A stretch of DNA of 51,754 nt from Escherichia virus TH30, in the sequence record MT446404.1; one strand, 5' to 3'. Shown in pieces: positions 34,249 to 46,015 of this stretch; the stretch's first letter is position 1; each line of letters opens with the position of its first letter. Made by a program: the position numbers and the translations under genes. The notes beneath the pieces are model-generated. The model was given only the letters and a program-made list of their open reading frames with translations. It ran no database searches and was not told the DNA's origin.

Positions 34249-34406
34249 TGCTCAAGCCATCCGATTTGAATTACTACGACAACGACACGATCGCGAAACT
34301 CTCAGGTCAAGGATGGTATCCATGGAGCACCAGCGCTCAGGTTGAAGATTTGCAAAGCAGTTACGAAATCACACAGAAAGCAATTGAGAAGGCAAAGAAG
34401 AAATGA
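34248..34406 (+). CDS. possible 52-aa protein (MLKPSDLNYYDNDTIAKLSGQGWYPW...)
   Basis: Below ORF-track cut-off; fills gap with TAATG and ATGA overlaps. Confidence 0.3.
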   Translation: MLKPSDLNYYDNDTIAKLSGQGWYPWSTSAQVEDLQSSYEITQKAIEKAKKK

Positions 34407-35086
34407 AAAAGGTAATTTACTGCTTGTTCGACGGTTCCGGTATCGCTGGTCTACCATGGGCGGAAAATGGTCACACCGTCTACTGCTTCAACGCGGACTC
34501 TGGTAATCATGGAGAATATCACATCAAGATGCAGCATGAGAATATCCACTACGTCAACATGTGGATTGACAAGGATTTCATCACCAAGTGCGAATTGCTC
34601 GGCCTGCCTCCGGCGCAAATGGTTATCGGCTTCCCTGATTGCACGCTGTTCTCTCAGTCAGGATCGCAGCATGAGCGCGGGGAAGATGAACTGGCGTACG
34701 CCCTGGCAAATGCGAAGCTCGTCGAAGAAGTCGGTAATCACTTCCAGGCACCATGGATGGTTGAGAATCCGGTAGGTAAGCTGTCAAGCCTGTGGCGTAA
34801 GCCTGACTTCTACTTCAATCCGTATGAGTACGGCGGGCTAATGAAGGCTCACGATCTACCGTACCACGAAAAAATGCCTAAATACGACGGCTACACGAAG
34901 AAAACTTGCATCTGGCATGGCAACGGATTCGTTGAGCCGGTTAAGAAGCCTGGCCCGATTAACATTGGCTTCTTTTGGGGATGGAAATTCCTCGGAGGGA
35001 AGTCTGCTAAGACAAAGCAGTTGCGCTCACTGACTCCACGTGGATTTGCGCGCGCCGTATACCTGGCGAATCATTTAACCAAATAG
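34403..35086 (+). CDS. compact DNA cytosine-C5 methyltransferase-like protein (227 aa)
   Basis: LFDGSGIAG (motif I FxGxG-like), GFPDCTLFSQSG (motif IV PC-like with Cys), ENPVGKL (motif VI ENV-like). Confidence 0.5.
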   Translation: MKKVIYCLFDGSGIAGLPWAENGHTVYCFNADSGNHGEYHIKMQHENIHYVNMWIDKDFITKCELLGLPPAQMVIGFPDCTLFSQSGSQHERGEDELAYALANAKLVEEVGNHFQAPWMVENPVGKLSSLWRKPDFYFNPYEYGGLMKAHDLPYHEKMPKYDGYTKKTCIWHGNGFVEPVKKPGPINIGFFWGWKFLGGKSAKTKQLRSLTPRGFARAVYLANHLTK

Positions 35087-35099
35087 CACTAATTGCTAA
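35083..35099 (+). promoter_or_regulatory. conserved 17-bp motif ATAGCACTAATTGCTAA, upstream stop TAG embedded
   Basis: Followed by terminator-like hairpin and CATCTCATCGAAACGAAAC. Confidence 0.55.
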
Positions 35100-35100
35100 A

Positions 35101-35118
35101 GCCCTTCGGGGCTTTTCC
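35101..35118 (+). terminator. hairpin AGCCC-ttcg-GGGCT plus T-run
   Basis: Read from sequence. Confidence 0.5.
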
Positions 35119-35164
35119 TGTATATTCATCTCATCGAAACGAAACACACTAAAGGAAAATAATC

Positions 35165-35518
35165 ATGGCTACCACACTTACGAAAAACTTCGTCACCTCC
35201 GACAACCGCCTTCTGAAAGCTCGCGTGAAAGATGAAGTAGAGCAAATCAAGGTTGATGGCAAGTGGGTTAACCTTGACATCAAGGGCCGTTACATCAAGA
35301 CTAAAACCCTTTACGTGACTAAGATTAACCACAAGTCTTCCGTTAAAAAAGACTTCACGCAAGGTAAGCGCTATCAGGTTGACATGCACGCCGGACTCGG
35401 TAGTAACGCTGGTTACATCTTCGATAACGACGGCGTAGCATGGCAGTTGTACCGCTCGGATGACGTCGGATTCGAAACAGTATGCGGAACATACCGATTT
35501 GAGGCTGCGTATAAATAA
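35165..35518 (+). CDS. hypothetical protein (117 aa)
   Basis: ORF with RBS AAGGAAA. Confidence 0.45.
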   Translation: MATTLTKNFVTSDNRLLKARVKDEVEQIKVDGKWVNLDIKGRYIKTKTLYVTKINHKSSVKKDFTQGKRYQVDMHAGLGSNAGYIFDNDGVAWQLYRSDDVGFETVCGTYRFEAAYK

Positions 35519-35588
35519 GTAGCATTTTTTGGCAAGCGGTTTTACCATAGGTGCGTTAACATTAGCGCACCAACTAAGGAGTTTTTTA

Positions 35589-37172
35589 ATGTTTGATTTT
35601 AACGAAGATAAACTGTCAATCGATCAGGTAATGGCTGTAGCCGCTGCCGACAACCTGCCGCCTCTGCGCGTTGCCATTAATGCGAACGGGTACAGGCAGA
35701 GCCAGTCATTCTGGAAAGCCCCAACCGAAATTGACTCAGGCGGTGACAAATATCCGGTAATCTCACTTGGTAACGATTATGATGTCGTTGGTAAACTTTC
35801 AAGCAACGCCGCCCGTTCTGTTCAGTTCCCTGAGTCGTCCGCATACATGCATTTCCTAGGATGCATATCAGCCGCCATGCTGGGCCGATTTACGGTTGAG
35901 TATCACGGAACACAACAGCCTACCGCGCTGTACGTCGTAACCAGTCAGCCACCATCGACAGGTAAGTCAGCCATCAACTCACTTTCGCTGGCCCCGATGA
36001 TCGCAGAAACTGAGCGACTAAACGAAATCCGAAAGCGTGACCGCAAGAAGATTATGGCTAAGCTTTCCGCTCTATCCAAGGAGATGAAGCAGGAGAAATC
36101 ACCGTCCGACATGGCGGCGCTGTTTGAGGAAAAAGAAGAACTGGAGGAAAAACTGGAACGGCTTTGTGACATCGTGTTCCCCGTATCCGATACCACGCCG
36201 GAAGGTCTTGCGCGAATCAACAACCGACAGGGCAACTTCTCTGTGATCTCGGATGAAGCAACGAGCGTAAACTCACTGTTAGGCATGACCTATGGTGACG
36301 GCTCAAAGAAAACGAACAGCGAGCTTGTGCTTAAGGCATGGGATGCTGGTAACGTATCTATCGCGCGTGCGAACGCAGACAATAACATGAGCTTTATTGC
36401 GATGGGGTGCATATCTGTAATTGCACAGGATGAAACAATCAACGCGATCATGAACGCCGGCGCGCGCGGTATCGGTGTATCCGAGCGTTTCTTGCTTGTG
36501 CGAGAGAAGTCATTCCTTGGCGAGCGTGTATTCGTCGATGAGAAAGGTGAATCAACATACGAGCCGATTGATGGCGGACTCAAGGCGGACTACTTCCGTT
36601 TGGTTCATGAGATCATGAGCGAACACGAAGTAAACCTGACAGTAAGCACGTCGGCGATGAAATATCTCAACCGTGCTCGTCAGGATATGGAGCCTCACCT
36701 TGCTGACGGCGGGAAGTATTCACACACAATGCTGCGCGGCGCGCTTGGTAAGTTCGATAAGCAGGCAATCAGGATTGCTGCGGTTCTTCACACTGTGCGT
36801 AACTGGTTCAATCCAAACGGCGGCAGCCCGCAGAAGTCCAGAGAGATTGAACTTGATACAATGCAAGAAGCCGTGATCATGTTCCAGGAACTCAGTAAAA
36901 CTTATCTGTCATCTGCCAACGCTGCTGGTCACGCTGGCGACCATGCGGAGATGAACAAGCTGATTGACATACTGATCAAGCAAGGCAAGAACGGGAAAGG
37001 CGTTGTAGGTGTCCGATCCCTATATGAAGCGGCGCGTAAGGTTAAGCCATTTGAGGGCCAGGCTGGCGTAATGACTCGCATCAAAGACCACCTGATCCCT
37101 ATGCTGGATGAGAAAAACTATACGTGCCTTATTGGTGATAAAATTTACATTAATCCGCGGCTGCTGGGGTAA
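35589..37172 (+). CDS. P-loop NTPase of unknown function (527 aa from ATG at 35589), possibly replication-associated
   Basis: AGGAG RBS 8 nt before ATG 35589; Walker A-like QPPSTGKSA; termini shared with 29504..30055. Confidence 0.5.
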   Translation: MFDFNEDKLSIDQVMAVAAADNLPPLRVAINANGYRQSQSFWKAPTEIDSGGDKYPVISLGNDYDVVGKLSSNAARSVQFPESSAYMHFLGCISAAMLGRFTVEYHGTQQPTALYVVTSQPPSTGKSAINSLSLAPMIAETERLNEIRKRDRKKIMAKLSALSKEMKQEKSPSDMAALFEEKEELEEKLERLCDIVFPVSDTTPEGLARINNRQGNFSVISDEATSVNSLLGMTYGDGSKKTNSELVLKAWDAGNVSIARANADNNMSFIAMGCISVIAQDETINAIMNAGARGIGVSERFLLVREKSFLGERVFVDEKGESTYEPIDGGLKADYFRLVHEIMSEHEVNLTVSTSAMKYLNRARQDMEPHLADGGKYSHTMLRGALGKFDKQAIRIAAVLHTVRNWFNPNGGSPQKSREIELDTMQEAVIMFQELSKTYLSSANAAGHAGDHAEMNKLIDILIKQGKNGKGVVGVRSLYEAARKVKPFEGQAGVMTRIKDHLIPMLDEKNYTCLIGDKIYINPRLLG

Positions 37173-37175
37173 ATT

Positions 37176-37550
37176 ATGTTTCTTCTGGATCTGTACCGTT
37201 TTTGCGAAGGCTATGAAAAATTCAACCGTCAGCACCTGGCGGTATTCATATACAAGCACAGGGAGTGTGAGCGACTGGCTAAGGCCGCAGGCGTTACTCC
37301 TCGCTATTTCGCGTCATCAGCCTCAAAGGAGTTCATTGCAAGATGTATGGTCGAAGGATACATTAACGGGGTGAACAACTGGTACTGGTCCAATGGGGCG
37401 CAAAAGAGGCCATTTGAATTTCATTTCAAGTGCTATGGCGGTGAGAACGATCGCTATACATGGGAGATGATGAACATAGAGAAGATGAGCGATAATGAGT
37501 TATTCGGAAAGCCAGGTTGTAATCGACGCGATAATCAGATGCAGTTCTGA
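37176..37550 (+). CDS. hypothetical protein (124 aa)
   Basis: ORF. Confidence 0.4.
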   Translation: MFLLDLYRFCEGYEKFNRQHLAVFIYKHRECERLAKAAGVTPRYFASSASKEFIARCMVEGYINGVNNWYWSNGAQKRPFEFHFKCYGGENDRYTWEMMNIEKMSDNELFGKPGCNRRDNQMQF

Positions 37551-37687
37551 GAATGGGATTAGCGAGGACGGGCTTAACCAAGCCCTTCTTTCAATGCTTA
37601 ACTCATCCATGCGCGCCGGACGACGTGATGAGCATACTCTATGCAATAATGAAGGTGAATTATTGCTGCTGGTGCAAAGATTTGGAT

Positions 37688-37720
37688 AAAAAAGGGAGCC
37701 TTTCGGCTCCTTTTATTTTT
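37688..37720. terminator. bidirectional terminator between rightward early block and lysis cassette
   Basis: A-run, GGAGCC-tttc-GGCTCC, T-run. Confidence 0.65.
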
Positions 37721-38099
37721 TGCGTCGTTCCAGCCAGATTGAAAGAGCAATCATCACAATGCCGATGAACAGGAATACCAGTCCGGCAATCAGATTACCT
37801 TTCGAGTCATCGTTCCTGATCTCAATCTTATCAGCGATGATGGTGTCAGCCTTGATGCTTGAGGTGCTGACAGACTTCCCGTTTGACGTATCAACCTTTC
37901 CTACCTTTGAATCTTTTATAGTGGTGTCGTTGTCGTTTGACTTATCCACCTTTCCGGTAACGCCTACCGTTTGCTTCACGTTCTCGGCACCAGCCTGTGC
38001 GCTAATTTCTGGCTTACTGCCAATTAAACCAGTCAGCGCCGAAGTGGCTGAACAACCTGAAAGCATAATCACTGCCGCGATCACAATTCCCTTAAGCAT
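37713..38099 (-). CDS. unimolecular spanin-like protein (lipoprotein with C-terminal transmembrane helix, 128 aa)
   Basis: Lipobox LSGC at N-terminus and hydrophobic helix LIAGLVFLFIGIVMIALSIW then RRKK; last gene of lysis cassette. Confidence 0.6.
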   Translation of the reverse strand: MLKGIVIAAVIMLSGCSATSALTGLIGSKPEISAQAGAENVKQTVGVTGKVDKSNDNDTTIKDSKVGKVDTSNGKSVSTSSIKADTIIADKIEIRNDDSKGNLIAGLVFLFIGIVMIALSIWLERRKK

Positions 38100-38563
38100 A
38101 GTTCTATCTCCGCGTTGCGCCTGTTAACCAGGCCTTTGCTAACAACCTTCTTGCCATTTACCGTAATTTTATTCCACATAGAGAACGCCTCACAACCTCC
38201 GCGAATATCACCACGATTCATACGCCTGATAGTTGTTGAGTTCCTCATCGCGTTAGTGCCGATATTATAGCTAAGAGAGTATAGTGCGGCTCTGGTGCTC
38301 ACTGGAACATCAACTTTTAGGGCTTTATCAACAGCTGCCCTGTGAATAGATAGGTGCTTAATCAGAAGTGAGTCGCACTCACTCTGAGTGTACACCTTGC
38401 CGAGAATAACGTCAGGTCCAGTAATCCCCTGGCATACTGTCCACACCCCCGCAACATCCTTGTATGGCCTGTACTCAACACCTTCATGCTCATTTAGGAA
38501 TGGAACAGCTAGCGCTACAGCTCCCGCCACAGCGCCACCAATAATCTTGTTCTTTATACTCAT
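38081..38563 (-). CDS. SAR endolysin (phage lysozyme fold with N-terminal signal-anchor-release helix, 160 aa)
   Basis: N-terminal Gly/Ala-rich weakly hydrophobic helix KIIGGAVAGAVALAVPF followed by EGVEYRPYKDVAGVWTVCQGITG catalytic-type region. Confidence 0.75.
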   Translation of the reverse strand: MSIKNKIIGGAVAGAVALAVPFLNEHEGVEYRPYKDVAGVWTVCQGITGPDVILGKVYTQSECDSLLIKHLSIHRAAVDKALKVDVPVSTRAALYSLSYNIGTNAMRNSTTIRRMNRGDIRGGCEAFSMWNKITVNGKKVVSKGLVNRRNAEIELCLREL

Positions 38564-38565
38564 TA

Positions 38566-38781
38566 TTATTTACTCCTGATCCTCATTGCTTCACGGAGAT
38601 CACCATCCTCAAGGGCTTTATGTAGTGCCCTGCTATCACGCCAGCGAAGCCATGCCCCGAAGATACCAAAGCACACAGCTATTACTAAGCCGATAATGCC
38701 GATTATTGTATTGTCAGATAAGCCGCCACCCATAGCTACTCCGCTACCGGATAAGGCGGCTGCGTCATAGAAATGTTTCAT
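38566..38781 (-). CDS. holin, probably pinholin class (71 aa)
   Basis: Two hydrophobic helices and charged C-terminus; directly upstream of SAR endolysin. Confidence 0.6.
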   Translation of the reverse strand: MKHFYDAAALSGSGVAMGGGLSDNTIIGIIGLVIAVCFGIFGAWLRWRDSRALHKALEDGDLREAMRIRSK

Positions 38782-38811
38782 GTTGCGGCCTCGTTAAGTT
38801 GATTTGTTTAA

Positions 38812-38820
38812 ATAATACCA
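38812..38820 (-). promoter_or_regulatory. extended -10 promoter TGGTATTAT upstream of holin
   Basis: Plus-strand ataatacca about 30 nt upstream of holin ATG. Confidence 0.45.
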
Positions 38821-38895
38821 GATATTACTCCTTGACATAAACGAAAAAAGGCGACCTTAAAGGCCACCTCTTTGTAACTTCATGTTTTTTATAAT

Positions 38896-39069
38896 TTAGT
38901 CTTCTATAATGAATTCCACCAAAGCACCATCAATCGGCGCAAAAATCCACGTCATATCGTCACCATAAATCTTGTAGTATCCGTCACCCTGATACTCACC
39001 GCTGTATGGACTGTTGACAGTGAAAGGAAGTGTCTTAGATGTATTCTTAATGCAAAACAATTTAACCAT
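38896..39069 (-). CDS. possible 57-aa protein (MVKLFCIKNTSKTLPF...)
   Basis: Below ORF-track cut-off; AGAGGA RBS 7 nt upstream. Confidence 0.35.
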   Translation of the reverse strand: MVKLFCIKNTSKTLPFTVNSPYSGEYQGDGYYKIYGDDMTWIFAPIDGALVEFIIED

Positions 39070-39123
39070 GATTAAATCCTCTGATAGTGAGATGTAAATA
39101 TAGCGCCAATCGGCGCCACATGT

Positions 39124-39140
39124 TAGGCAAAAAGTGCTAT
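39124..39140 (-). promoter_or_regulatory. variant conserved motif (ATAGCACTTTTTGCCTA)
   Basis: Immediately after HNH gene stop. Confidence 0.4.
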
Positions 39141-39141
39141 T

Positions 39142-39618
39142 TCAAGATCCGTGACTTCGATGGAATCCATGAATCTTTTCAGCATCCTTTCTTGCTATCA
39201 AAGCGTCATCGAACGAATCTCCATAATAAAGGATCTTTGTTTTTCCATTTATTTTTATCTGCGCTATCCATTTATTTTTCATATTGTTCCAAGCAACACC
39301 AACAGTTCCGCTCGTGTTTGTTGATGGCTTACGCTTGTTCCTGTTGTTGATTAACCTTGTAACCATTCTTAGGTTTTCAATTCTATCATCACCAGGAACG
39401 TGATTTATATGATCTATCTCCATACCATCTGGTATAGTGCCGTTGTGCATCTCCCATACGATTCTATGTCTTGGCGTAATTGTGTCATATCTACGGATAT
39501 ACCAATAACCCCTATGATGCCTACTCCCAGCTTCATCACCAGGCTTCAATCTTGTGCAGTGAGGGTCCTTCCAAAATACCCGTCCATCTTTATAGTATAA
39601 GAAATCATTCCAATTCAT
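39142..39618 (-). CDS. HNH homing endonuclease (158 aa)
   Basis: EIDHINHVPGDDRIENLRMVTR motif; paralogue of 16915..17397 and 40836..41321. Confidence 0.85.
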   Translation of the reverse strand: MNWNDFLYYKDGRVFWKDPHCTRLKPGDEAGSRHHRGYWYIRRYDTITPRHRIVWEMHNGTIPDGMEIDHINHVPGDDRIENLRMVTRLINNRNKRKPSTNTSGTVGVAWNNMKNKWIAQIKINGKTKILYYGDSFDDALIARKDAEKIHGFHRSHGS

Positions 39619-39672
39619 CTAATCATCCTCTCGTTTCTATAAAACAATAATAGCGCCATATAGGCGCTATGT

Positions 39673-39689
39673 TTTAACAAAAAGTGCTA
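39673..39689 (-). promoter_or_regulatory. conserved 17-bp motif (ATAGCACTTTTTGTTAA)
   Basis: One nt after TGA stop of 39690..40832; followed by hairpin. Confidence 0.5.
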
Positions 39690-40832
39690 TCAAATATCAC
39701 TCATCTCTGGACGGTAAACGAATCGACCAACCTCACCGAACTCTTTTGAGTACACGATTACAGCTGCTTGGCGATACGATCTCCAACCACCACGGGCCGC
39801 ATATGCGTCTTTTGCTCCTAGTTGGCCGTGAACCTCATCAATCCCCAAAGTTCCTTCCGTGATCGTCTGATGGTGCCAATGGCCACTATGCGTGTAAATA
39901 TATTTGCTCGTACCAAACTCTTCGCGGAAGTCAGTAGCCATTGCCGCCAGTCGAGTATCTGCTTTCTTCATGGTGTGACCATGAGTGTACCCCAGCAATG
40001 TCTTACCCCACTTGGTACGGTGAAGAATCATAGGAGACGTATCAACCGTTACGCGCACCTCATCTTCAAAGTATGCCGCCATTGCAGCGCGGAGCCAAAT
40101 CATACCCGCCTGATCATGATTCCCTTCAATGATCTGGATTTCGACCTCTTCGTGCTTATCCAGCATTAGCGCCACCGCGCGGCGTACGGAACGGATTGCA
40201 ACGTGAACTAGCTTGGCGTATCGACTATCCTGATCCAGTACGTGACCGCTTGCAGGCGTCACTGCGTCCAGGCCATCAGAGTGAAGGAAGTCACCGCCGA
40301 TTAGCAGAACTGCTTTCTTAGCCTTCGGTGATACGCCTACGGAATAATCAAAGAAGTTTTTCAGCACTTTCTCTGAGATGTCGGTGCTGTAGTTCTCACC
40401 GCATTCATGCTTGTGGGCCATCGCGCCAATATGAAGATCGAATACAGGATAGAGCGCCAGGAGATTTTCATCATAGCTAGGCTCGCCAAGGATAGGCTGA
40501 GCCGCCGCGCGCGGGAGTTCGTCACAGAATGCTTCAATTGCAGCATCCATCATGGCGGCTAACTTTTCCTTGTCCTGATCGGTCTTAATCCAGCGGATTT
40601 TCTCGTTGCCTTCCGCGTCAATCATAGTTGATGTGGCCTTAACCATGAAGCCGTCAGGCACATATTTAGCAACTGCTTTATTGCCATGCCCGTGACCTTT
40701 ACGAGCAAGGTTACTTGAGCGCTGCTCAACTGTACGAATGTTCATCCCGTATTCTTGGGCGATTTGACGAAGTGTTTTACCAGCTTCGCGCTCAGCAATG
40801 AATTGTTCGTCACTAATCTTCTGCATAGCCAT
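39690..40832 (-). CDS. HTH-domain plus calcineurin-like metallophosphoesterase (380 aa)
   Basis: N-terminal HTH-like LRQIAQEYGMNIRTVEQR; GDFLHSD and GNHD metal-binding motifs. Confidence 0.55.
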   Translation of the reverse strand: MAMQKISDEQFIAEREAGKTLRQIAQEYGMNIRTVEQRSSNLARKGHGHGNKAVAKYVPDGFMVKATSTMIDAEGNEKIRWIKTDQDKEKLAAMMDAAIEAFCDELPRAAAQPILGEPSYDENLLALYPVFDLHIGAMAHKHECGENYSTDISEKVLKNFFDYSVGVSPKAKKAVLLIGGDFLHSDGLDAVTPASGHVLDQDSRYAKLVHVAIRSVRRAVALMLDKHEEVEIQIIEGNHDQAGMIWLRAAMAAYFEDEVRVTVDTSPMILHRTKWGKTLLGYTHGHTMKKADTRLAAMATDFREEFGTSKYIYTHSGHWHHQTITEGTLGIDEVHGQLGAKDAYAARGGWRSYRQAAVIVYSKEFGEVGRFVYRPEMSDI

Positions 40833-40835
40833 TTT

Positions 40836-41321
40836 TTATTCTCCGTGATTCTTGTGAAATTTAAATTTTCTTTGAAATTGCATTCTACACAATTTCGCTT
40901 CTTCTATCGAGTTAAAGTAACCAAGATGCATTAACTTTCCGTCAACCTTTATCCTTGCGCAATACTTTGATAGCGGCTTGTGCCACGACACGCCCGTAAC
41001 TCCGGTTGAATTATCAATTCGTATCGACTGGTTTCTTCCGTTTTCCTTTCTTGTGACAAGCCTGAGGTTAGATATGCTGTTATTGCTCCTGTCATGGTCT
41101 ATATGGTCTATCTCCATTCCATTAGGAATTTCACCGTTATGTATATACCATACAACAATATGAACCCTATAGTTTTTCTTGTTAAACATCATTTGCCAGT
41201 ATCCAGTCACTTTACTGGCGCAACCGCACTTGCTTCCAACCTTTATCTTTTTACTCTTTGATTTCTTCCATACTAAATGAAGTTCATCATCATACTCTAC
41301 AAAATCAATAAGCTCATTCAC
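40836..41321 (-). CDS. HNH homing endonuclease (161 aa)
   Basis: EIDHIDHDRSNNSISNLRLVTRKEN motif. Confidence 0.85.
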   Translation of the reverse strand: MNELIDFVEYDDELHLVWKKSKSKKIKVGSKCGCASKVTGYWQMMFNKKNYRVHIVVWYIHNGEIPNGMEIDHIDHDRSNNSISNLRLVTRKENGRNQSIRIDNSTGVTGVSWHKPLSKYCARIKVDGKLMHLGYFNSIEEAKLCRMQFQRKFKFHKNHGE

Positions 41322-41402
41322 ATTAAAATCCTTATCGTGTTAGTAAGTAGATGATAATAAAACCAATTAGCGGCGGTAATAATACAGGAATTAAGCAGCG
41401 CA

Positions 41403-41654
41403 TCAAATCTTTTTCAACCATGTTGTTAAAGTATCTGGCTCAACCGCTTCACCTGCACTCTCTGATTCGCTGGGAACCATCATACCAGTTGAAGGGCTAA
41501 AATACATCAGGCGATAGCCGCCACCGCGCGAACATGGCACATCTTCGAAGTCAGAAGGCAACCAGTCAGCGAAAGGGATGATCGCGAACGTCTCATTGTT
41601 GTTGCTGCAAGTCGGATATTTGTCAGCGTCAAAATCAAGGCCTGGTAAGTTCAT
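41403..41654 (-). CDS. hypothetical acidic protein (83 aa)
   Basis: ORF. Confidence 0.35.
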   Translation of the reverse strand: MNLPGLDFDADKYPTCSNNNETFAIIPFADWLPSDFEDVPCSRGGGYRLMYFSPSTGMMVPSESESAGEAVEPDTLTTWLKKI

Positions 41655-41896
41655 TTATATCTTCTCGCTGCGTCTTTCGTTGCTTGAATGCAGGCTTTGT
41701 AGTCAATCTTCACCGGAGTTGCCGGAACTCTGATCAGCTTACGTGGCCTTTCGTGTATATACGTCATTTTCCCGTTAAAGATGACGCATATGTCTTTAAT
41801 ATCGAAGTACTTGGCTATAAGCGCAATGTCATCACTTATTCCTGCTTCCTTGCAGTGATTCCAAACAGCCTGACGGCCTACATCAACAGTTACCAT
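41651..41896 (-). CDS. hypothetical protein (about 82 aa from MVTVDVG)
   Basis: ORF trimmed to ATG with GGGGAG RBS. Confidence 0.3.
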   Translation of the reverse strand: MVTVDVGRQAVWNHCKEAGISDDIALIAKYFDIKDICVIFNGKMTYIHERPRKLIRVPATPVKIDYKACIQATKDAARRYK

Positions 41897-42116
41897 AAAT
41901 ATCAAAGCTCCCCGACATGGCCTGATAATCTGCGATAGGCAAATGACCATAAGCGCCCTTGAGATAAGTAACAGCAATAACCTCATCCAGTCCGCCATCC
42001 TTGCCAAGCGCCAGCGCTTCACTTGCGCAATCATTAGCCAGGCGAAGCAGGTGCGGCAGTAAAATATTTTTACGGTATGCTTGCTGGTTGTAAGTGCTAA
42101 AAGGTTGCTTCTTCAT
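41883..42116 (-). CDS. hypothetical protein (77 aa)
   Basis: ORF; leader shares GTATACTTCTTTCATACCAAC with the leader of 27271..27459. Confidence 0.35.
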   Translation of the reverse strand: MKKQPFSTYNQQAYRKNILLPHLLRLANDCASEALALGKDGGLDEVIAVTYLKGAYGHLPIADYQAMSGSFDIYGNC

Positions 42117-42173
42117 GGTGATTCCTCGTCTCGTTGGTATGAAAGAAGTATACCCGCTCGGCGGCGGGTATGT

Positions 42174-42190
42174 TTAGCAATTAGTGCTAT
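42174..42190 (-). promoter_or_regulatory. conserved 17-bp motif (ATAGCACTAATTGCTAA), upstream stop TAG embedded
   Basis: Followed by hairpin TACCCGC...GCGGGTA with TATACT. Confidence 0.55.
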
Positions 42191-42426
42191 TGTGCGAAAT
42201 CTTCAGGGCACTCGCGCTTATAGTCTTCCATATCTTTTCGTATTGCTTTAACCCATGTATTGATCGGCTGATCCTGCACCTCTTCGAATGACATATCCAG
42301 ATCTGAGAACGCCCAGGCATCACCCTTAAAACCAGCTTTCGTTAACACCTCACAAACGACAGCGCGAAATAAAAGATACTTACCTTTGTCGGTTAAATTG
42401 ATTTGTACACTGCTCATTTTAAACAC
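42187..42426 (-). CDS. hypothetical acidic protein (79 aa)
   Basis: ORF. Confidence 0.4.
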   Translation of the reverse strand: MFKMSSVQINLTDKGKYLLFRAVVCEVLTKAGFKGDAWAFSDLDMSFEEVQDQPINTWVKAIRKDMEDYKRECPEDFAQ

Positions 42427-43147
42427 TCCGTTTACGTGGTTTTTTACGGCTTACGCCAGGGCAAATATCAGCGACGCTAACGTATGTCGTTTTCTGCGTC
42501 TCGCCTTCTTCAAGTTTTCGCATGACAAAAATCACGCTACCTTTATTGTTGCCATCGACAGGCTTTCCGGTCAGTCCAGAGATGAAGGCCAACCGCCCCG
42601 TCCGGCAATATTCCTGGCTATCAATCTCTGTGATGTCAGCCTCAATCCAGATGATTTCAGCCGCGTTGCGCCGGGCCTCGGCAAACCATGCCGTAGAGTT
42701 ATCACCAGGAAGCAACATATCAATCTGATTGTTGTGCTCCATTTGCTCAATCGCTTTCTTCACGAAAGGATCTGGATGTGAGTACGGCGGATTCAGCCAG
42801 ATATGCTTATTGCTACCCCACCAAATTTTGAGACAGTTCACATGTTCGCTGTAGAACTTTTCGCAAACAGCATTGTTAGCGCTGGCGGCGGCGTCAATGT
42901 CATACTTCCCGTAACGCGACTCCATCCATGAGATCACTTCTCTGTCAGTGGCCCAAAGGTCACGCACAGCGTCAGGCGTCTTGCTTCCGGCGTATCGGTT
43001 TCCAGTTACCTGATAGAAGGTGTCCGGCTTAACCGCTTGATAGTGACCGTTACCAGGAACAAGCGCATTGGTAACAAAGTTTTCACGTTCGATCTGCTCA
43101 AAGCTAACGAATGCGTCATGAGTATCTTTGTCGTTTGAGTCGATCAT
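42419..43147 (-). CDS. dam: DNA N6-adenine methyltransferase (Dam-like, 242 aa)
   Basis: Catalytic NPPY motif (WLNPPYSHP). Confidence 0.75.
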   Translation of the reverse strand: MIDSNDKDTHDAFVSFEQIERENFVTNALVPGNGHYQAVKPDTFYQVTGNRYAGSKTPDAVRDLWATDREVISWMESRYGKYDIDAAASANNAVCEKFYSEHVNCLKIWWGSNKHIWLNPPYSHPDPFVKKAIEQMEHNNQIDMLLPGDNSTAWFAEARRNAAEIIWIEADITEIDSQEYCRTGRLAFISGLTGKPVDGNNKGSVIFVMRKLEEGETQKTTYVSVADICPGVSRKKPRKRSV

Positions 43148-43487: not shown

Positions 43488-43504
43488 TTAGCAATTCGTG
43501 CTAT
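43488..43504 (-). promoter_or_regulatory. conserved 17-bp motif; upstream stop is the TAA of the motif
   Basis: Followed by hairpin with TATTAT loop and CATCGAAACGAAG. Confidence 0.55.
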
Positions 43505-43916
43505 TCAGCATATCTGCAACGGCTTTCTTATATTCCTCCTGGCCGTATGCCACCGCCGCGAACCCGCCACGCTCTCGGACACGACGAAGGAACTCTTTCT
43601 GCTCCTTGCTGACTGGTGATGCCTTGCCTTTCCCGCTTTTATTGACTCGCTTCAATTCTATGGCCCCGAAAGGATATTTACCGAACGGACCGAGAAGGAA
43701 CACAAAGTCACTAACCCCCTTCAACAATCCGCTCTGAGCATCAACCAGCGCCGAATGCATAGTTTTCTTACCCTCATTAACTGTGTGCCAGAACAGGAGG
43801 TAAGAGTGATTTACATTAGTCCAGGTCACGCAATCGACCTGGTGCTTGTTCTCTGTCCATGTATCCGATTTGTCTGGAGTGTAATATTCCAGGTAGTCGC
43901 CTTTATCTGTAATCAT
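43488..43916 (-). CDS. VRR-NUC-like nuclease (142 aa)
   Basis: SDFVFLL...GAIELKRVNKSGK...SKEQKEFL pattern resembles PD-(D/E)xK VRR-NUC core. Confidence 0.45.
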   Translation of the reverse strand: MITDKGDYLEYYTPDKSDTWTENKHQVDCVTWTNVNHSYLLFWHTVNEGKKTMHSALVDAQSGLLKGVSDFVFLLGPFGKYPFGAIELKRVNKSGKGKASPVSKEQKEFLRRVRERGGFAAVAYGQEEYKKAVADMLNSTNC

Positions 43917-46015
43917 AAGTTACCGTCCAATCCGAAATCCTTACGTGAAATGATGTCCTCACCTTTTGCATTCTTGCGGTGAGTTACCCGCACCGGATGT
44001 GCTATGTGGTGAGCGTTGTTTAAAATCATTTTAGCACTTCTGTAAGCCGCCATTAACTTTGCGATCTTACTGTCATGCACATGAGGTAACACCCCTTTCT
44101 GTTTCCATATCGTGTGACATACCTGCGCCGTTGACTGCGGGAAGAACTTTTCATACGCGATGAAATTAACTCCAACTGAATCTGTCAGATCGTAACGATA
44201 AAGAATACCAGTCTGATTGCGTGTCAGCGTTACTTCAAAACTATTCACTGTGCACCAGTCGTTTTTGGTGTAAGCCTTACCAGTCAGGTTATCGTTGGGA
44301 TCTTTCAGACTCACATCACAGCAACGGCATATTCTCGCCACTACGTCATTTTTAGCGCCACATCCCTTAACAATCACCTCGCCAGTGCGTTCATCAACCT
44401 GGTCTTCACATATGCGAGACTTCCAAAAATACTCGCACCGATTTCCGTTTTCATCTCTGTGAATGCAGCGGCGAGCGTAAAAACTGTTCTCGGTTCCGCA
44501 CAGTTCACATTTTTTCGGTTCTTTCTTACCATCAAAGCGGCGCTGATACTGAGCCTCTTCAAGAATCGGATCAAAGTAAAGCTGACCAAGCTCATCCATA
44601 GTGCCAGCGAAATCCCACACCAGGTGATCTTCTTTCACCATTCCCATTGCTTTTTGCCACGGTTTGAGCAATCGCATACCTCGACCAAGCAACTGTATTA
44701 ACAGAGTAAGCGATCCTATCTTGCGCAGGATTACCGAGAAATCCCAGAACGGAACGTTAACGCCAGTGGTTAGCGCCACTACCTGGAATATGTATTTAAT
44801 CTCGCCACGGTTCGCTGCTTCCAGTATCGCTTGTCGCTTTTTGGTGTTTGTCTTCTCCGTGATTATCTCATAGGTAGCGTCAGGTGGCAGATAGCTCGCC
44901 GCCTCTTTGCAATGGCGCTGGCCTGAGCACGTAATCAGTACACCATTTCGCTTCTTCGCCTCTTCGACTACCATTCCCATTATTCGCTTGGTCATGCTGG
45001 CGTTATCATGGATTTTCTTCTCCATCGCCTTCATTTCTTTCTGACCGAAGTCTGCCGTGCCATCCTGGCTGGACGCCTTGAACTCATCAAGATCATATCC
45101 AGCGTCTCCGACACTTCCGAAGATGGTTGGAACAACGGAACCGAACTCAATCAGGTAGCTGGTGTCGATGTTAGTAACCTGCTCACGCCAGAATCCAGGT
45201 AGCTTAGGGTTATCGACAACGATCGGGGCCGTACCTCGGAACTCAGAACCAGTCATGCCGAAGATGCGTAATTCCTTCCCGTTCTTCTCTTTGCATCGGC
45301 GCATTAATTCAGTGATGATTATCGTGTACTGGCTTCGCTTGGTGCCAAGAACAGGCTCGCCAGTCTTCCTGCTTATCAGTAATTGCTTATCCATCACCTG
45401 GACACCAACCTCTACGCCGTCAAGGTATCCATTGACATAACCTTCGCTGTTTTTCGGGTAGTCAACGAATACACGCTCATCTTTTTCAGCGAGCATCATC
45501 TCAATCGTTTCTTCATTGTCGATGGCGGCGGCAAGGTCTTCCCAATCCACCTGGTGACATTCATCAATCCCCAGCACCATAGGTGTAAAATCACCAAGCG
45601 CCTTAAACAGACCGTTCGCAACCGAGCCTTCCGATCCAACAACGATAGGAAAGTAAGCTGATTTTGTGTTCAGGCCAGCACAGTAAACTGAGTTAGGAAC
45701 GCCGAAGTTTGAGATTTCTTCACTATCCTGAGCAACAATGTCTCCCTGGCGCGCCAGTATCATCATCGAAAGGCCCATCTCTTTTACGCGAGATGCGATC
45801 ATAGCAAAGCCGATTGTTTTACCTGCCGATACCGACGCCTTGACAATGAATGGATGTCTGTAGCGAGCAATGCGCTTGCCGATCTCATCATACATTACGC
45901 ATTGATATTCATAAGGAACCATGTCACCGAGCGTGAATTTATCCTGAATCTCTTTAATCTTCTGCGGGCCAAGTTCTTCTATCTGTTTTTTAATGGATTT
46001 AATGCGCATAGCCAT
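43913..46015 (-). CDS. SF2 ATP-dependent DNA helicase with C-terminal zinc-ribbon (700 aa)
   Basis: Walker A SAGKT, motif II DECH, C-terminal CxxC...CxxC clusters. Confidence 0.75.
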   Translation of the reverse strand: MAMRIKSIKKQIEELGPQKIKEIQDKFTLGDMVPYEYQCVMYDEIGKRIARYRHPFIVKASVSAGKTIGFAMIASRVKEMGLSMMILARQGDIVAQDSEEISNFGVPNSVYCAGLNTKSAYFPIVVGSEGSVANGLFKALGDFTPMVLGIDECHQVDWEDLAAAIDNEETIEMMLAEKDERVFVDYPKNSEGYVNGYLDGVEVGVQVMDKQLLISRKTGEPVLGTKRSQYTIIITELMRRCKEKNGKELRIFGMTGSEFRGTAPIVVDNPKLPGFWREQVTNIDTSYLIEFGSVVPTIFGSVGDAGYDLDEFKASSQDGTADFGQKEMKAMEKKIHDNASMTKRIMGMVVEEAKKRNGVLITCSGQRHCKEAASYLPPDATYEIITEKTNTKKRQAILEAANRGEIKYIFQVVALTTGVNVPFWDFSVILRKIGSLTLLIQLLGRGMRLLKPWQKAMGMVKEDHLVWDFAGTMDELGQLYFDPILEEAQYQRRFDGKKEPKKCELCGTENSFYARRCIHRDENGNRCEYFWKSRICEDQVDERTGEVIVKGCGAKNDVVARICRCCDVSLKDPNDNLTGKAYTKNDWCTVNSFEVTLTRNQTGILYRYDLTDSVGVNFIAYEKFFPQSTAQVCHTIWKQKGVLPHVHDSKIAKLMAAYRSAKMILNNAHHIAHPVRVTHRKNAKGEDIISRKDFGLDGNL

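What the first reader, a model, noticed from the sequence alone, without database searches (positions are those of the whole stretch)
34403..43147. Two DNA methyltransferase-like genes: Dam-like and an unusually short C5-like enzyme
42419..43147 has the NPPY motif of N6-adenine methyltransferases. 34403..35086 has FDGSG, P-D-C and ENPVG motifs in the order expected for a C5-cytosine methyltransferase but is only 227 aa, too short for a standard target-recognition domain. Both would be anti-restriction functions; the short one may have a different substrate.
Basis: partly seen in the sequence, partly recalled or inferred. Interest (0 to 1): 0.55.

Follow-up and report, generated by a model that had tools for sequence, protein, structure and literature searches.

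The report
Phage Dam plus compact cytosine methyltransferase
This T1-like coliphage carries two real but already annotated orphan DNA methyltransferase genes: a T1-type Dam, and a compact 227-residue "Dcm-like" cytosine-C5 enzyme from a family in which one member is reported to trigger the retron Ec86 defence, so the finding is correct but ordinary.

Summary
Both genes exist exactly where stated, and every quoted motif is present. ORF 42419-43147 (minus strand, 242 aa) is a T1-type Dam. It passes Pfam PF05869 and TIGR01712 and is 69% identical to T1 Dam. T1-like phages with this gene keep GATC at 1.1-1.4x expectation; relatives without it at the syntenic site avoid GATC (0.2-0.44x).

The shortness is a family trait. 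Only 39 residues lie between the motif VIII and IX anchors, against 106-121 in M.HhaI and E. coli Dcm, and no motif X follows.

The methyltransferase reading is supported. The anti-restriction role is plausible but untested. A "different substrate" is not supported, although the target sequence is unknown.

Verdict: already known, low interest. The open question is how such a minimal enzyme picks its target.

The parts
34403..35086 (+). CDS, 227 aa: compact 'Dcm-like' cytosine-C5 DNA methyltransferase (phrog_757 family)
34427..34441 (+). Motif I, F9-D-G-S-G13 (AdoMet-binding loop after strand 1)
   Evidence: Nearly invariant among close relatives. Follows strand E4-8 in the model. This region aligns to PF00145 positions 3-100 in relatives.
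34631..34645 (+). Motif IV, F77-P-D-C80-T81: catalytic cysteine. Asp replaces the usual Pro before the Cys in this clade.
   Evidence: C80 is invariant in 79 diverse members, and F77, P78 and T81 are at least 90% conserved. C80 corresponds to K42/KarlJaspers C82. A flexible loop follows (pLDDT <50 at residues 86-90).
34763..34777 (+). Motif VI, E121-N-P-V-G125
   Evidence: E121 and P123 are invariant and N122 is at least 90% conserved. E121 corresponds to K42 E128. hhalign places it opposite the ENV of E. coli Dcm (not significant).
34892..34906 (+). Motif VIII-like Y164-T-K166-K-T168, replacing the canonical Q-x-R-x-R
   Evidence: Y164, K166 and T168 are invariant. K166/K167 correspond to K42 K175/K176. 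Canonical QxRxR is shown for Dcm and HhaI. The equivalence is inferred.
34907..35023 (+). Residues 169-207: the 39 residues between the motif VIII and IX anchors (strand 168-173, then a loop). This is all that stands in place of a target-recognition domain.
   Evidence: Anchor spacing is 39 residues here, 106 in M.HhaI and 121 in E. coli Dcm. Residues about 184-197 are variable, with indels, across the family. This stretch is unalignable with the KarlJaspers enzyme.
35024..35053 (+). Motif IX-like R208-S-L-T-P-R-G-F-A-R217. The protein ends 10 residues later, so there is no motif X.
   Evidence: The best local match of the C-terminus to E. coli Dcm is RRLTPRECAR, residues 400-409 (65 of 1000 shuffles reach the score). 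R208, S209, P212, G214 and A218 are at least 90% conserved. Dcm and HhaI carry FGNSV about 20-30 residues after motif IX.
42419..43147 (-). CDS, 242 aa: T1-type Dam (N6-adenine DNA methyltransferase)
   Evidence: PF05869 E 3.8e-60. TIGR01712 at 182.8 bits. phrog_111 E 1e-79. 69% identical to T1 ST20 and 71% to the KarlJaspers Dam.
42782..42793 (-). N119-P-P-Y122 catalytic motif of the Dam
   Evidence: Located by script. Conserved in the T1 and KarlJaspers Dam alignments.
35529..37172 (+). Context only: DUF3987 helicase. The compact methyltransferase gene sits upstream of it in Drexlerviridae, separated by one or two small ORFs.
   Evidence: PF13148 and phrog_2373. Same arrangement in KarlJaspers, ESCO41 and Sd1. 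T1 and JeanPiccard have the helicase but no methyltransferase there.
43488..46015 (-). Context only: helicase (43913-46015) and VRR-NUC (43488-43916) genes, the synteny anchor for the Dam gene
   Evidence: Pfam hits. The order helicase, VRR-NUC-size ORF, Dam is also seen in T1 and KarlJaspers. Sd1 and JeanPiccard keep the first two genes without Dam.

Best explanation
The window is a Drexlerviridae (T1-like, Nouzillyvirus-type) coliphage with two independent orphan DNA methyltransferase genes and no partner nuclease. (1) ORF 42419-43147 is the T1-type Dam. It most likely makes N6-methyladenine at GATC on replicating phage DNA, which lets the phage tolerate GATC sites. (2) ORF 34403-35086 is a compact cytosine-C5 DNA methyltransferase. 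It is essentially the catalytic Rossmann domain: motif I FDGSG binds AdoMet, Cys80 attacks C6 of the flipped cytosine, and Glu121 protonates N3. Only about 39 residues stand where a target-recognition domain would be, and there is no motif X. By homology to phage K42 Dcm it most likely deposits 5-methylcytosine on DNA. The likely pay-off is protection from cytosine-sensitive restriction. The likely cost is that the same activity can be sensed by retron Ec86. Shown here: gene reality, family membership, fold, conserved catalytic residues, synteny and the GATC signature. Inferred: enzymatic activity, target sequences and biological role.
Confidence: 0.8

Rival explanations
1. The compact enzyme is an active DNA cytosine-C5 methyltransferase but not a Dcm (CCWGG) mimic. 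With only a short loop to read DNA, it may recognise a shorter or degenerate motif, or a DNA structure such as a hairpin, single strand or replication fork. It may act as a DNMT3-like dimer. Specificity may differ between clades.
For: Only 39 residues lie between the motif VIII and IX anchors, and there is no motif X. The best structural matches are DNMT3A/B; that these have the smallest recognition elements and bind DNA as dimers is from my own knowledge. The window enzyme and the K42-type enzyme are unalignable in residues about 177-196, the most variable part of the family. In 12 of 58 environmental phage loci that carry a family member, CCWGG is strongly avoided (O/E <0.25), which is odd if those enzymes protected CCWGG. 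In the preprint the dcm+ host MG1655 alone gave only low msDNA methylation. So the phage enzyme does something that host Dcm at native level does not.
Against: Mutating either C of the msDNA CCTGG abolished Ec86 defence, which fits CCWGG recognition by the K42 enzyme. T1-like phages with the gene are somewhat richer in CCWGG (median O/E 1.91 against 1.31). The MG1655 result may simply reflect enzyme dosage. No direct specificity data exist for either view.
Confidence: 0.35
2. The compact protein methylates RNA (tRNA or rRNA m5C, like Dnmt2) or another non-DNA substrate.
Confidence: 0.06
3. The compact protein is catalytically inactive and works by binding. It could be a DNMT3L-like cofactor for another methyltransferase, an AdoMet sink, or a DNA-binding decoy.
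For: Pro is replaced by Asp before the Cys, QxRxR and motif X are missing, and the window protein has no Pfam hit.
Against: The catalytic Cys80 and Glu121 are invariant over 79 diverse members, which is not expected for a dead enzyme. The K42 quadruple active-site mutant lost both methylation and retron triggering. Triggering is also reported in BL21(DE3); that this strain lacks host Dcm is from my own knowledge.
Confidence: 0.06
4. The compact enzyme transfers a group other than methyl, for example carboxymethyl from carboxy-SAM as phage CmoX does, as a first step in hypermodification.
Against: CmoX enzymes are defined by a conserved Arg that contacts the carboxyl group, and usually by neighbouring cmoA and ligase genes. 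No conserved basic residue at an equivalent C-terminal position was identified here: residue 217 is variable. The neighbours are small ORFs and a helicase. LC-MS on the K42 homolog detected 5mC. CmoX is no closer structurally than ordinary methyltransferases.
Confidence: 0.03

Closest known systems
Phage T1 Dam (ST20; Pfam PF05869 / TIGR01712 phage N6-adenine methyltransferase)
   Same: 69% identical over 221 residues. Same NPPY motif, same length class (242 against 237 aa) and same position after the helicase and VRR-NUC genes. The Dam-carrying phages examined keep GATC at or above expectation.
   Different: Nothing of note beyond a slightly different N-terminus. GATC specificity of T1 Dam is recalled from the literature and was not retrieved here.
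Phage K42 / KarlJaspers (Bas06) 'Dcm', the reported trigger of retron Ec86 (bioRxiv 10.1101/2023.08.16.553469; published as Cell Rep 2024, 43:114857, cited)
   Same: Same compact family and same architecture. The catalytic residues correspond: C80/E121/K166/K167 here, C82/E128/K175/K176 there. Both sit upstream of the DUF3987 helicase.
   Different: Only 43% identical. The window clade has FPDC rather than FPPC. The loop at residues about 177-196, the only candidate DNA-reading element, is unalignable. Whether this phage is sensed by Ec86 is untested.
Canonical bacterial cytosine-C5 methyltransferases (E. coli Dcm, M.HhaI, M.HaeIII; Pfam PF00145)
   Different: No PF00145 hit. About 100-245 residues shorter. 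39 residues where these enzymes have 106-121. YxKxT instead of QxRxR, and no motif X (FGNSV).
DNMT3A/DNMT3B catalytic domains
   Different: 13-18% identity. The DNMT3 enzymes retain motif X and work as dimers or tetramers with regulatory domains (own knowledge). The oligomeric state of the phage enzyme is unknown.
Phage CmoX (DNA cytosine-C5 carboxymethyltransferase, PDB 8yf3)
   Different: The solved CmoX chain is 333-372 residues. It has a carboxyl-binding Arg and cmoA/ligase neighbours, none of which was found here.

Membership tests
Phage Dam (PF05869 / TIGR01712) | Scores above the curated cut-offs of the family models | tested here: met
   PF05869 at 202.8 bits against 28.1. TIGR01712 equivalog at 182.8 bits against 97.05.
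Phage Dam (PF05869 / TIGR01712) | (D/N)PPY catalytic motif | tested here: met
   NPPY at residues 119-122, conserved in the T1 and KarlJaspers Dam alignments.
Phage Dam (PF05869 / TIGR01712) | Orthology with T1 Dam (sequence and synteny) | tested here: met
   69% identity, E 1e-118. Same gene order: helicase, VRR-NUC-size ORF, Dam.
Phage Dam (PF05869 / TIGR01712) | m6A formation at GATC | not testable with these tools
   Indirect only. GATC O/E is 1.1-1.4 in Dam-carrying T1-like phages and 0.2-0.44 in relatives without Dam at the syntenic site.
Cytosine-C5 DNA methyltransferases (PF00145) | Scores above the Pfam gathering cut-off | tested here: not met
   No hit for the window protein even at E<=10. 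Only 1 of 79 family members hits at E<=0.01. The 58%-identical P0094 passes (27.3 against 22 bits), but only over motifs I-IV.
Cytosine-C5 DNA methyltransferases (PF00145) | Methyltransferase fold of the cytosine-C5 type | tested here: met
Cytosine-C5 DNA methyltransferases (PF00145) | Motif I, FxGxG | tested here: met
   F9-D-G-S-G13, directly after strand 1. Nearly invariant in close relatives.
Cytosine-C5 DNA methyltransferases (PF00145) | Motif IV, Pro-Cys with the catalytic cysteine | tested here: inconclusive
   Cys80 is invariant. The preceding residue is Asp here (FPDC). Other family members have FPPC or FPSC. Canonical enzymes have PC.
Cytosine-C5 DNA methyltransferases (PF00145) | Motif VI, ENV | tested here: met
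   E121-N122-P123, with E121 and P123 invariant. Val is replaced by Pro.
Cytosine-C5 DNA methyltransferases (PF00145) | Motif VIII, QxRxR | tested here: not met
   The positionally equivalent conserved block is Y164-T-K166-K-T168. Dcm and HhaI have QHRER and QKRER.
Cytosine-C5 DNA methyltransferases (PF00145) | Target-recognition domain between motifs VIII and IX | tested here: not met
   39 residues between the anchors, against 106 in M.HhaI and 121 in E. coli Dcm.
Cytosine-C5 DNA methyltransferases (PF00145) | Motif IX, RxLTxRExARLxGF | tested here: inconclusive
   RSLTPRGFAR is the best local match to Dcm RRLTPRECAR, but 65 of 1000 shuffles reach that score.
Cytosine-C5 DNA methyltransferases (PF00145) | Motif X, GN(S/A)V | tested here: not met
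   The protein ends 10 residues after R217, and nothing like FGNSV follows.
Cytosine-C5 DNA methyltransferases (PF00145) | Forms 5-methylcytosine in DNA | not testable with these tools
   Reported in vivo for the 43%-identical K42-type enzyme.
Compact phage 'Dcm-like' family (phrog_757; K42 Dcm) | Full-length match to the family model, and family-typical length | tested here: met
   phrog_757 E 6.3e-80 over residues 1-224. Family members are about 200-260 aa.
Compact phage 'Dcm-like' family (phrog_757; K42 Dcm) | Residues named as catalytic or substrate-binding in K42 Dcm (C82, E128, K175, K176) | tested here: met
   They align to C80, E121, K166 and K167. C80, E121 and K166 are invariant.
Compact phage 'Dcm-like' family (phrog_757; K42 Dcm) | Orphan gene upstream of the DUF3987 helicase in Drexlerviridae | tested here: met
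   Same arrangement in KarlJaspers, ESCO41 and Sd1. No nuclease gene is adjacent.
Compact phage 'Dcm-like' family (phrog_757; K42 Dcm) | Triggers retron Ec86 | not testable with these tools
   Known only for K42.
CmoX carboxymethyltransferases | Conserved carboxyl-binding Arg plus neighbouring cmoA/ligase genes | tested here: inconclusive
   No methyltransferase-like or ligase-like ORF lies next to the gene. The C-terminal basic residue R217 is variable. The whole window was not scanned for cmoA, and no structural superposition was available.

The most novel reading that the evidence does not exclude
The compact family is a distinct, minimal class of DNA cytosine-C5 methyltransferase that works without a target-recognition domain and without motif X. 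Its target would be set by a loop of about 30 residues, perhaps with dimerisation or DNA structure, and would differ between clades rather than copying host Dcm (CCWGG). That would explain why host Dcm at native level gives only low msDNA methylation while the phage enzyme triggers retron Ec86. It would also make the enzyme a very small scaffold for engineering.
Probability: 0.25. Interest if true: 0.5.

Novelty: already known. Interest (0 to 1): 0.2.

Why it matters
As a discovery it matters little. Both genes are standard, already annotated accessory genes of T1-like phages. Near-identical copies are in GenBank: Sd1 gp68 is 97% identical, and TH21 carries a 98% match in an unannotated record.

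Three practical points follow.

1. The four combinations found among relatives show that the two genes are independent modules. The window has both, T1 has Dam only, Sd1 has the compact enzyme only, and JeanPiccard has neither. Dam presence tracks GATC tolerance.

2. Phage Dam and Dcm enzymes are reported as triggers of retron defences. Carrying them is therefore a trade-off, which is relevant to host range in phage therapy.

3. How an enzyme this small selects its target cytosines is still unanswered, and the question is cheap to test.

Tried and rejected
1. Direct sequence searches of the 227-aa protein against Pfam, NCBIfam and PDB sequences found nothing. A 79-member family profile against PDB sequences found only weak Rossmann noise.

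2. hhalign of the family against a single E. coli Dcm sequence put motifs IV and VI opposite each other but was not significant. Smith-Waterman comparisons with shuffles were also not significant, although the C-terminus did pick out Dcm motif IX.

3. CCSGG is almost absent from the window (2 sites; 76 expected from base composition). I tested whether this is a consequence of the compact enzyme, for example through relaxed CCNGG methylation creating targets for methylation-dependent restriction. I rejected that as a general link. Several phages with a family member have normal CCSGG counts, and several T1-like contigs without the gene are also depleted. It looks like a lineage trait.

4. CCWGG frequency as a read-out of specificity was inconclusive. 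No T1-like phage avoids CCWGG. Phages with the gene are only moderately richer (1.91 against 1.31), and that contrast is confounded by phylogeny.

5. I considered reading 'ARAV' as a motif X with Arg in the CmoX position. I dropped this because residue 217 is variable and the block aligns better with motif IX.

6. The afdb50 fold library was not available. The published Cell Reports paper is not held, so the K42 data come from the preprint.
Full report
**What the window is.** The region around the finding matches T1-like coliphages (Drexlerviridae). The nearest are TH21 (93.9%) and ESCO41/XT34/CJ19 (about 89%). ESCO41 is classified as Nouzillyvirus. Gene order in the finding's span is typical for the family:
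- small early ORFs
- the 227-aa ORF
- a 117-aa ORF
- a DUF3987 helicase (35529-37172)
- a lysis cassette on the minus strand
- two HNH endonuclease genes flanking a repair exonuclease gene
- the 242-aa ORF
- a small lipoprotein-like ORF
- VRR-NUC and helicase genes

**Checking the observation.** Both ORFs are at the stated coordinates.
- The 242-aa ORF is on the minus strand and has NPPY at residues 119-122.
- The 227-aa ORF is on the plus strand. It has FDGSG at 9-13, FPDC at 77-80 and ENPVG at 121-125.
- The start codon of the 227-aa ORF overlaps the stop of the preceding 52-aa ORF (ATGA). A purine-rich stretch, GAGAAGG, ends 10 nt upstream.

Both are real genes with very large homolog sets.

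**The Dam-like gene.**
- It scores 202.8 bits on Pfam PF05869 (cut-off 28.1) and 182.8 bits on the NCBIfam equivalog TIGR01712 (cut-off 97.05).
- It is 69% identical to T1 Dam (ST20) and 71% to the KarlJaspers Dam. It sits in the same place, after the helicase and VRR-NUC genes.
- That T1 Dam methylates GATC is from my own knowledge of the older literature. I could not retrieve it here.

A computed result supports that specificity. GATC observed/expected from base composition is 1.11 in the window, 1.43 in KarlJaspers and 1.26 in T1, and all three carry Dam. It is 0.30 in the 32 kb of Sd1 read, 0.40 in the 19 kb of JeanPiccard read, and 0.20-0.44 in 15 IMG/VR stretches of T1-like contigs with no Dam in the stretch fetched. 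Sd1 and JeanPiccard have only small hypothetical genes at the syntenic site. The contrast is confounded by phylogeny, and absence was not checked in every whole genome. Even so, it is what a GATC-protecting enzyme predicts.

**The 227-aa gene: family.**
- It has no Pfam, NCBIfam or PDB sequence hit.
- It matches phrog_757 ('DNA methyltransferase') over its whole length (E 6e-80).
- The word-indexed search found 1,912 clusters. The listed ones are 215-248 aa, apart from a few with N-terminal extensions.
- The exhaustive profile search found 1,831 representatives, and full-length ones are about 200-260 aa.
- tblastn finds it in 1,491 of 50,697 phage records: Drexlerviridae, Dhillonvirus, large myoviruses, Klebsiella, Salmonella and Vibrio phages and others. 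Annotators often call it a cytosine methylase or 'Dcm-like C5 cytosine methyltransferase'.
- A 61%-identical copy lies in the early operon of a lambdoid-type prophage in a bacterial chromosome, with no nuclease partner.

So the short length is a family property, and the gene is an orphan.

**The 227-aa gene: is it a cytosine-C5 methyltransferase?** By sequence the link is thin.
- Only 1 of 79 diverse members hits PF00145 at E<=0.01.
- A family profile finds no such enzyme among PDB sequences.
- Comparisons with E. coli Dcm are not significant.
- There is a transitive link. P0094, 58% identical to the window protein, passes the PF00145 cut-off (27.3 against 22 bits) over motifs I-IV. Several FPPC-type members give weaker hits to the same profile region.

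By structure the case is good.
- The AF2 model has pLDDT 84.8 and pTM 0.86.
- Foldseek agrees.
- Across 79 diverse members the invariant residues are C80, E121, P123, P140, Y164, K166, T168, W171 and P179. These include the catalytic Cys and the motif VI Glu.
- The only low-confidence segment (residues 86-90) is the loop after the Cys. In M.HhaI the catalytic loop is mobile (own knowledge).

**Anatomy compared with canonical enzymes.** I used the E. coli Dcm and M.HhaI sequences printed.
- Motif I is FDGSG.
- Motif IV is FPDC, where other members have FPPC or FPSC and canonical enzymes have PC.
- Motif VI is ENP, where canonical enzymes have ENV.
- Where QxRxR (motif VIII) should be, there is the invariant pattern Y164-x-K166-x-T168, followed by a strand.
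- The C-terminal conserved block RSLTPRGFAR resembles motif IX of Dcm (RRLTPRECAR). It is the best local match of the C-terminus to Dcm, though not significant on its own.
- Between the last motif VIII anchor and the first motif IX anchor there are 39 residues. M.HhaI has 106 and Dcm has 121.
- The protein ends 10 residues after motif IX, so the FGNSV motif X of Dcm and HhaI has no counterpart.
- The most variable, indel-rich part of the family is residues about 184-197, inside that 39-residue stretch.

**Link to experiments.**
- A preprint (10.1101/2023.08.16.553469) isolated escapers of retron Ec86 from phage K42, a KarlJaspers-like Drexlerviridae phage. All four disrupted a 711-bp 'dcm' gene.
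- Expressing that gene was toxic only when Ec86 was present.
- LC-MS showed high 5mC on msDNA with the wild-type gene. Levels were low with a C82A/E128A/K175A/K176A mutant or with empty vector.
- 34 of 35 Ec86-sensitive phages encoded such a gene.
- The published version is cited as Cell Rep 2024, 43:114857 but is not held.
- KarlJaspers (Bas06) has a 711-bp 'Dcm-like C5 cytosine methyltransferase' upstream of its DUF3987-type helicase. Its residues 82, 128, 175 and 176 are C, E, K and K. It is 43% identical (E 3e-63) to the window protein, and those residues align to C80, E121, K166 and K167.

The window protein is thus a member of the experimentally touched family, but of a different clade. 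The two proteins cannot be aligned in residues about 177-196.

**What is not established.** The preprint assumed CCWGG specificity by analogy with E. coli Dcm. It supported this only by mutating the msDNA CCTGG. The dcm+ host alone gave low msDNA methylation, so dosage or a real difference in substrate preference remains open.

Genome signatures did not settle the question. CCWGG is not avoided in any T1-like phage examined. Carriers are moderately richer (median O/E 1.91 against 1.31), and this is confounded by lineage. In 12 of 58 environmental loci carrying a distant family member, CCWGG is strongly depleted. This argues against a uniform CCWGG-protecting role across the family.

The BASEL study found no simple relation between these genes and restriction resistance. 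Earlier surveys only inferred an anti-restriction role from annotation.

**Modularity.** Among relatives all four combinations occur:

| Phage | Dam | Compact enzyme |
|---|---|---|
| Window | yes | yes |
| KarlJaspers | yes | yes |
| T1 | yes | no |
| Sd1 | no | yes (97% identical to the window's) |
| JeanPiccard | no | no |

**Verdict.** The Dam is a textbook T1-type enzyme. The short enzyme is a member of a common, already annotated and partly characterised phage family. Its role in anti-restriction is plausible but unproven, and the 'different substrate' idea has no support. The only open point of some interest is how such a minimal enzyme selects its target. Interest 0.2; novelty: already known.

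Noticed in passing
whole window (1-51754); also L001 (KarlJaspers): CCSGG (CCCGG/CCGGG) is almost absent: 2 sites against 76 expected from base composition and 25 from a maximal-order Markov model. CCWGG is abundant (142 against 84). KarlJaspers shows the same pattern (2 against 51). T1 does not (65 against 59). This suggests strong selection against a CCSGG- or CCNGG-cutting restriction system in some Drexlerviridae lineages. It is not tightly tied to the compact methyltransferase gene.
   Followed up: partly
L086-L100, L104-L106 compared with the window, L001 and L002: GATC is avoided 2.5-5 fold in T1-like phages that lack the Dam gene at the syntenic site. It is at or above expectation in those that carry Dam. 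The contrast is clean but not corrected for phylogeny.
   Followed up: partly
window 39142-39618 (-) and 40836-41321 (-): Two HNH_3 endonuclease genes (158 and 161 aa; the second also has a weak AP2 hit) flank the repair exonuclease gene at 39690-40832. They look like homing endonucleases.
   Followed up: no
whole window: Other palindromes are also depleted relative to base composition: CTAG 31 against 200, GGWCC 26 against 84, GTAC 113 against 200. Several 6-mers are nearly or fully absent: GGTACC 0, CTGCAG 0, CCCGGG 0, GAATTC 1, GATATC 1 (T1 has 19).
   Followed up: no
proteins P0023 and P0031; BFVD entries A0A6J5SE15 and A0A6J5NPY6: Some family members carry an N-terminal extension of about 100 residues (about 328 aa in total). 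The compact methyltransferase fold also occurs as one module of phage proteins of 1,100-1,400 aa, one of them annotated with a helicase N-terminal domain. Partner domains might supply DNA targeting in those cases.
   Followed up: no
loci L028, L037, L047, L053, L057, L064-L066 and others (IMG/VR contigs carrying distant family members): CCWGG is strongly depleted around the gene, for example 2 against 40 expected in L037 and 0 against 15 in L057. This is the opposite of the enterobacterial T1-like phages and hints that specificity or role differs across the family.
   Followed up: partly
literature (preprint 10.1101/2023.08.16.553469): The retron Ec86 experiments used E. coli MG1655; that this strain has its own CCWGG-specific Dcm is from my own knowledge. 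Yet msDNA methylation was low and the retron stayed quiet without the phage enzyme. Either dosage matters, or the phage enzyme has a substrate preference that host Dcm lacks.
   Followed up: no
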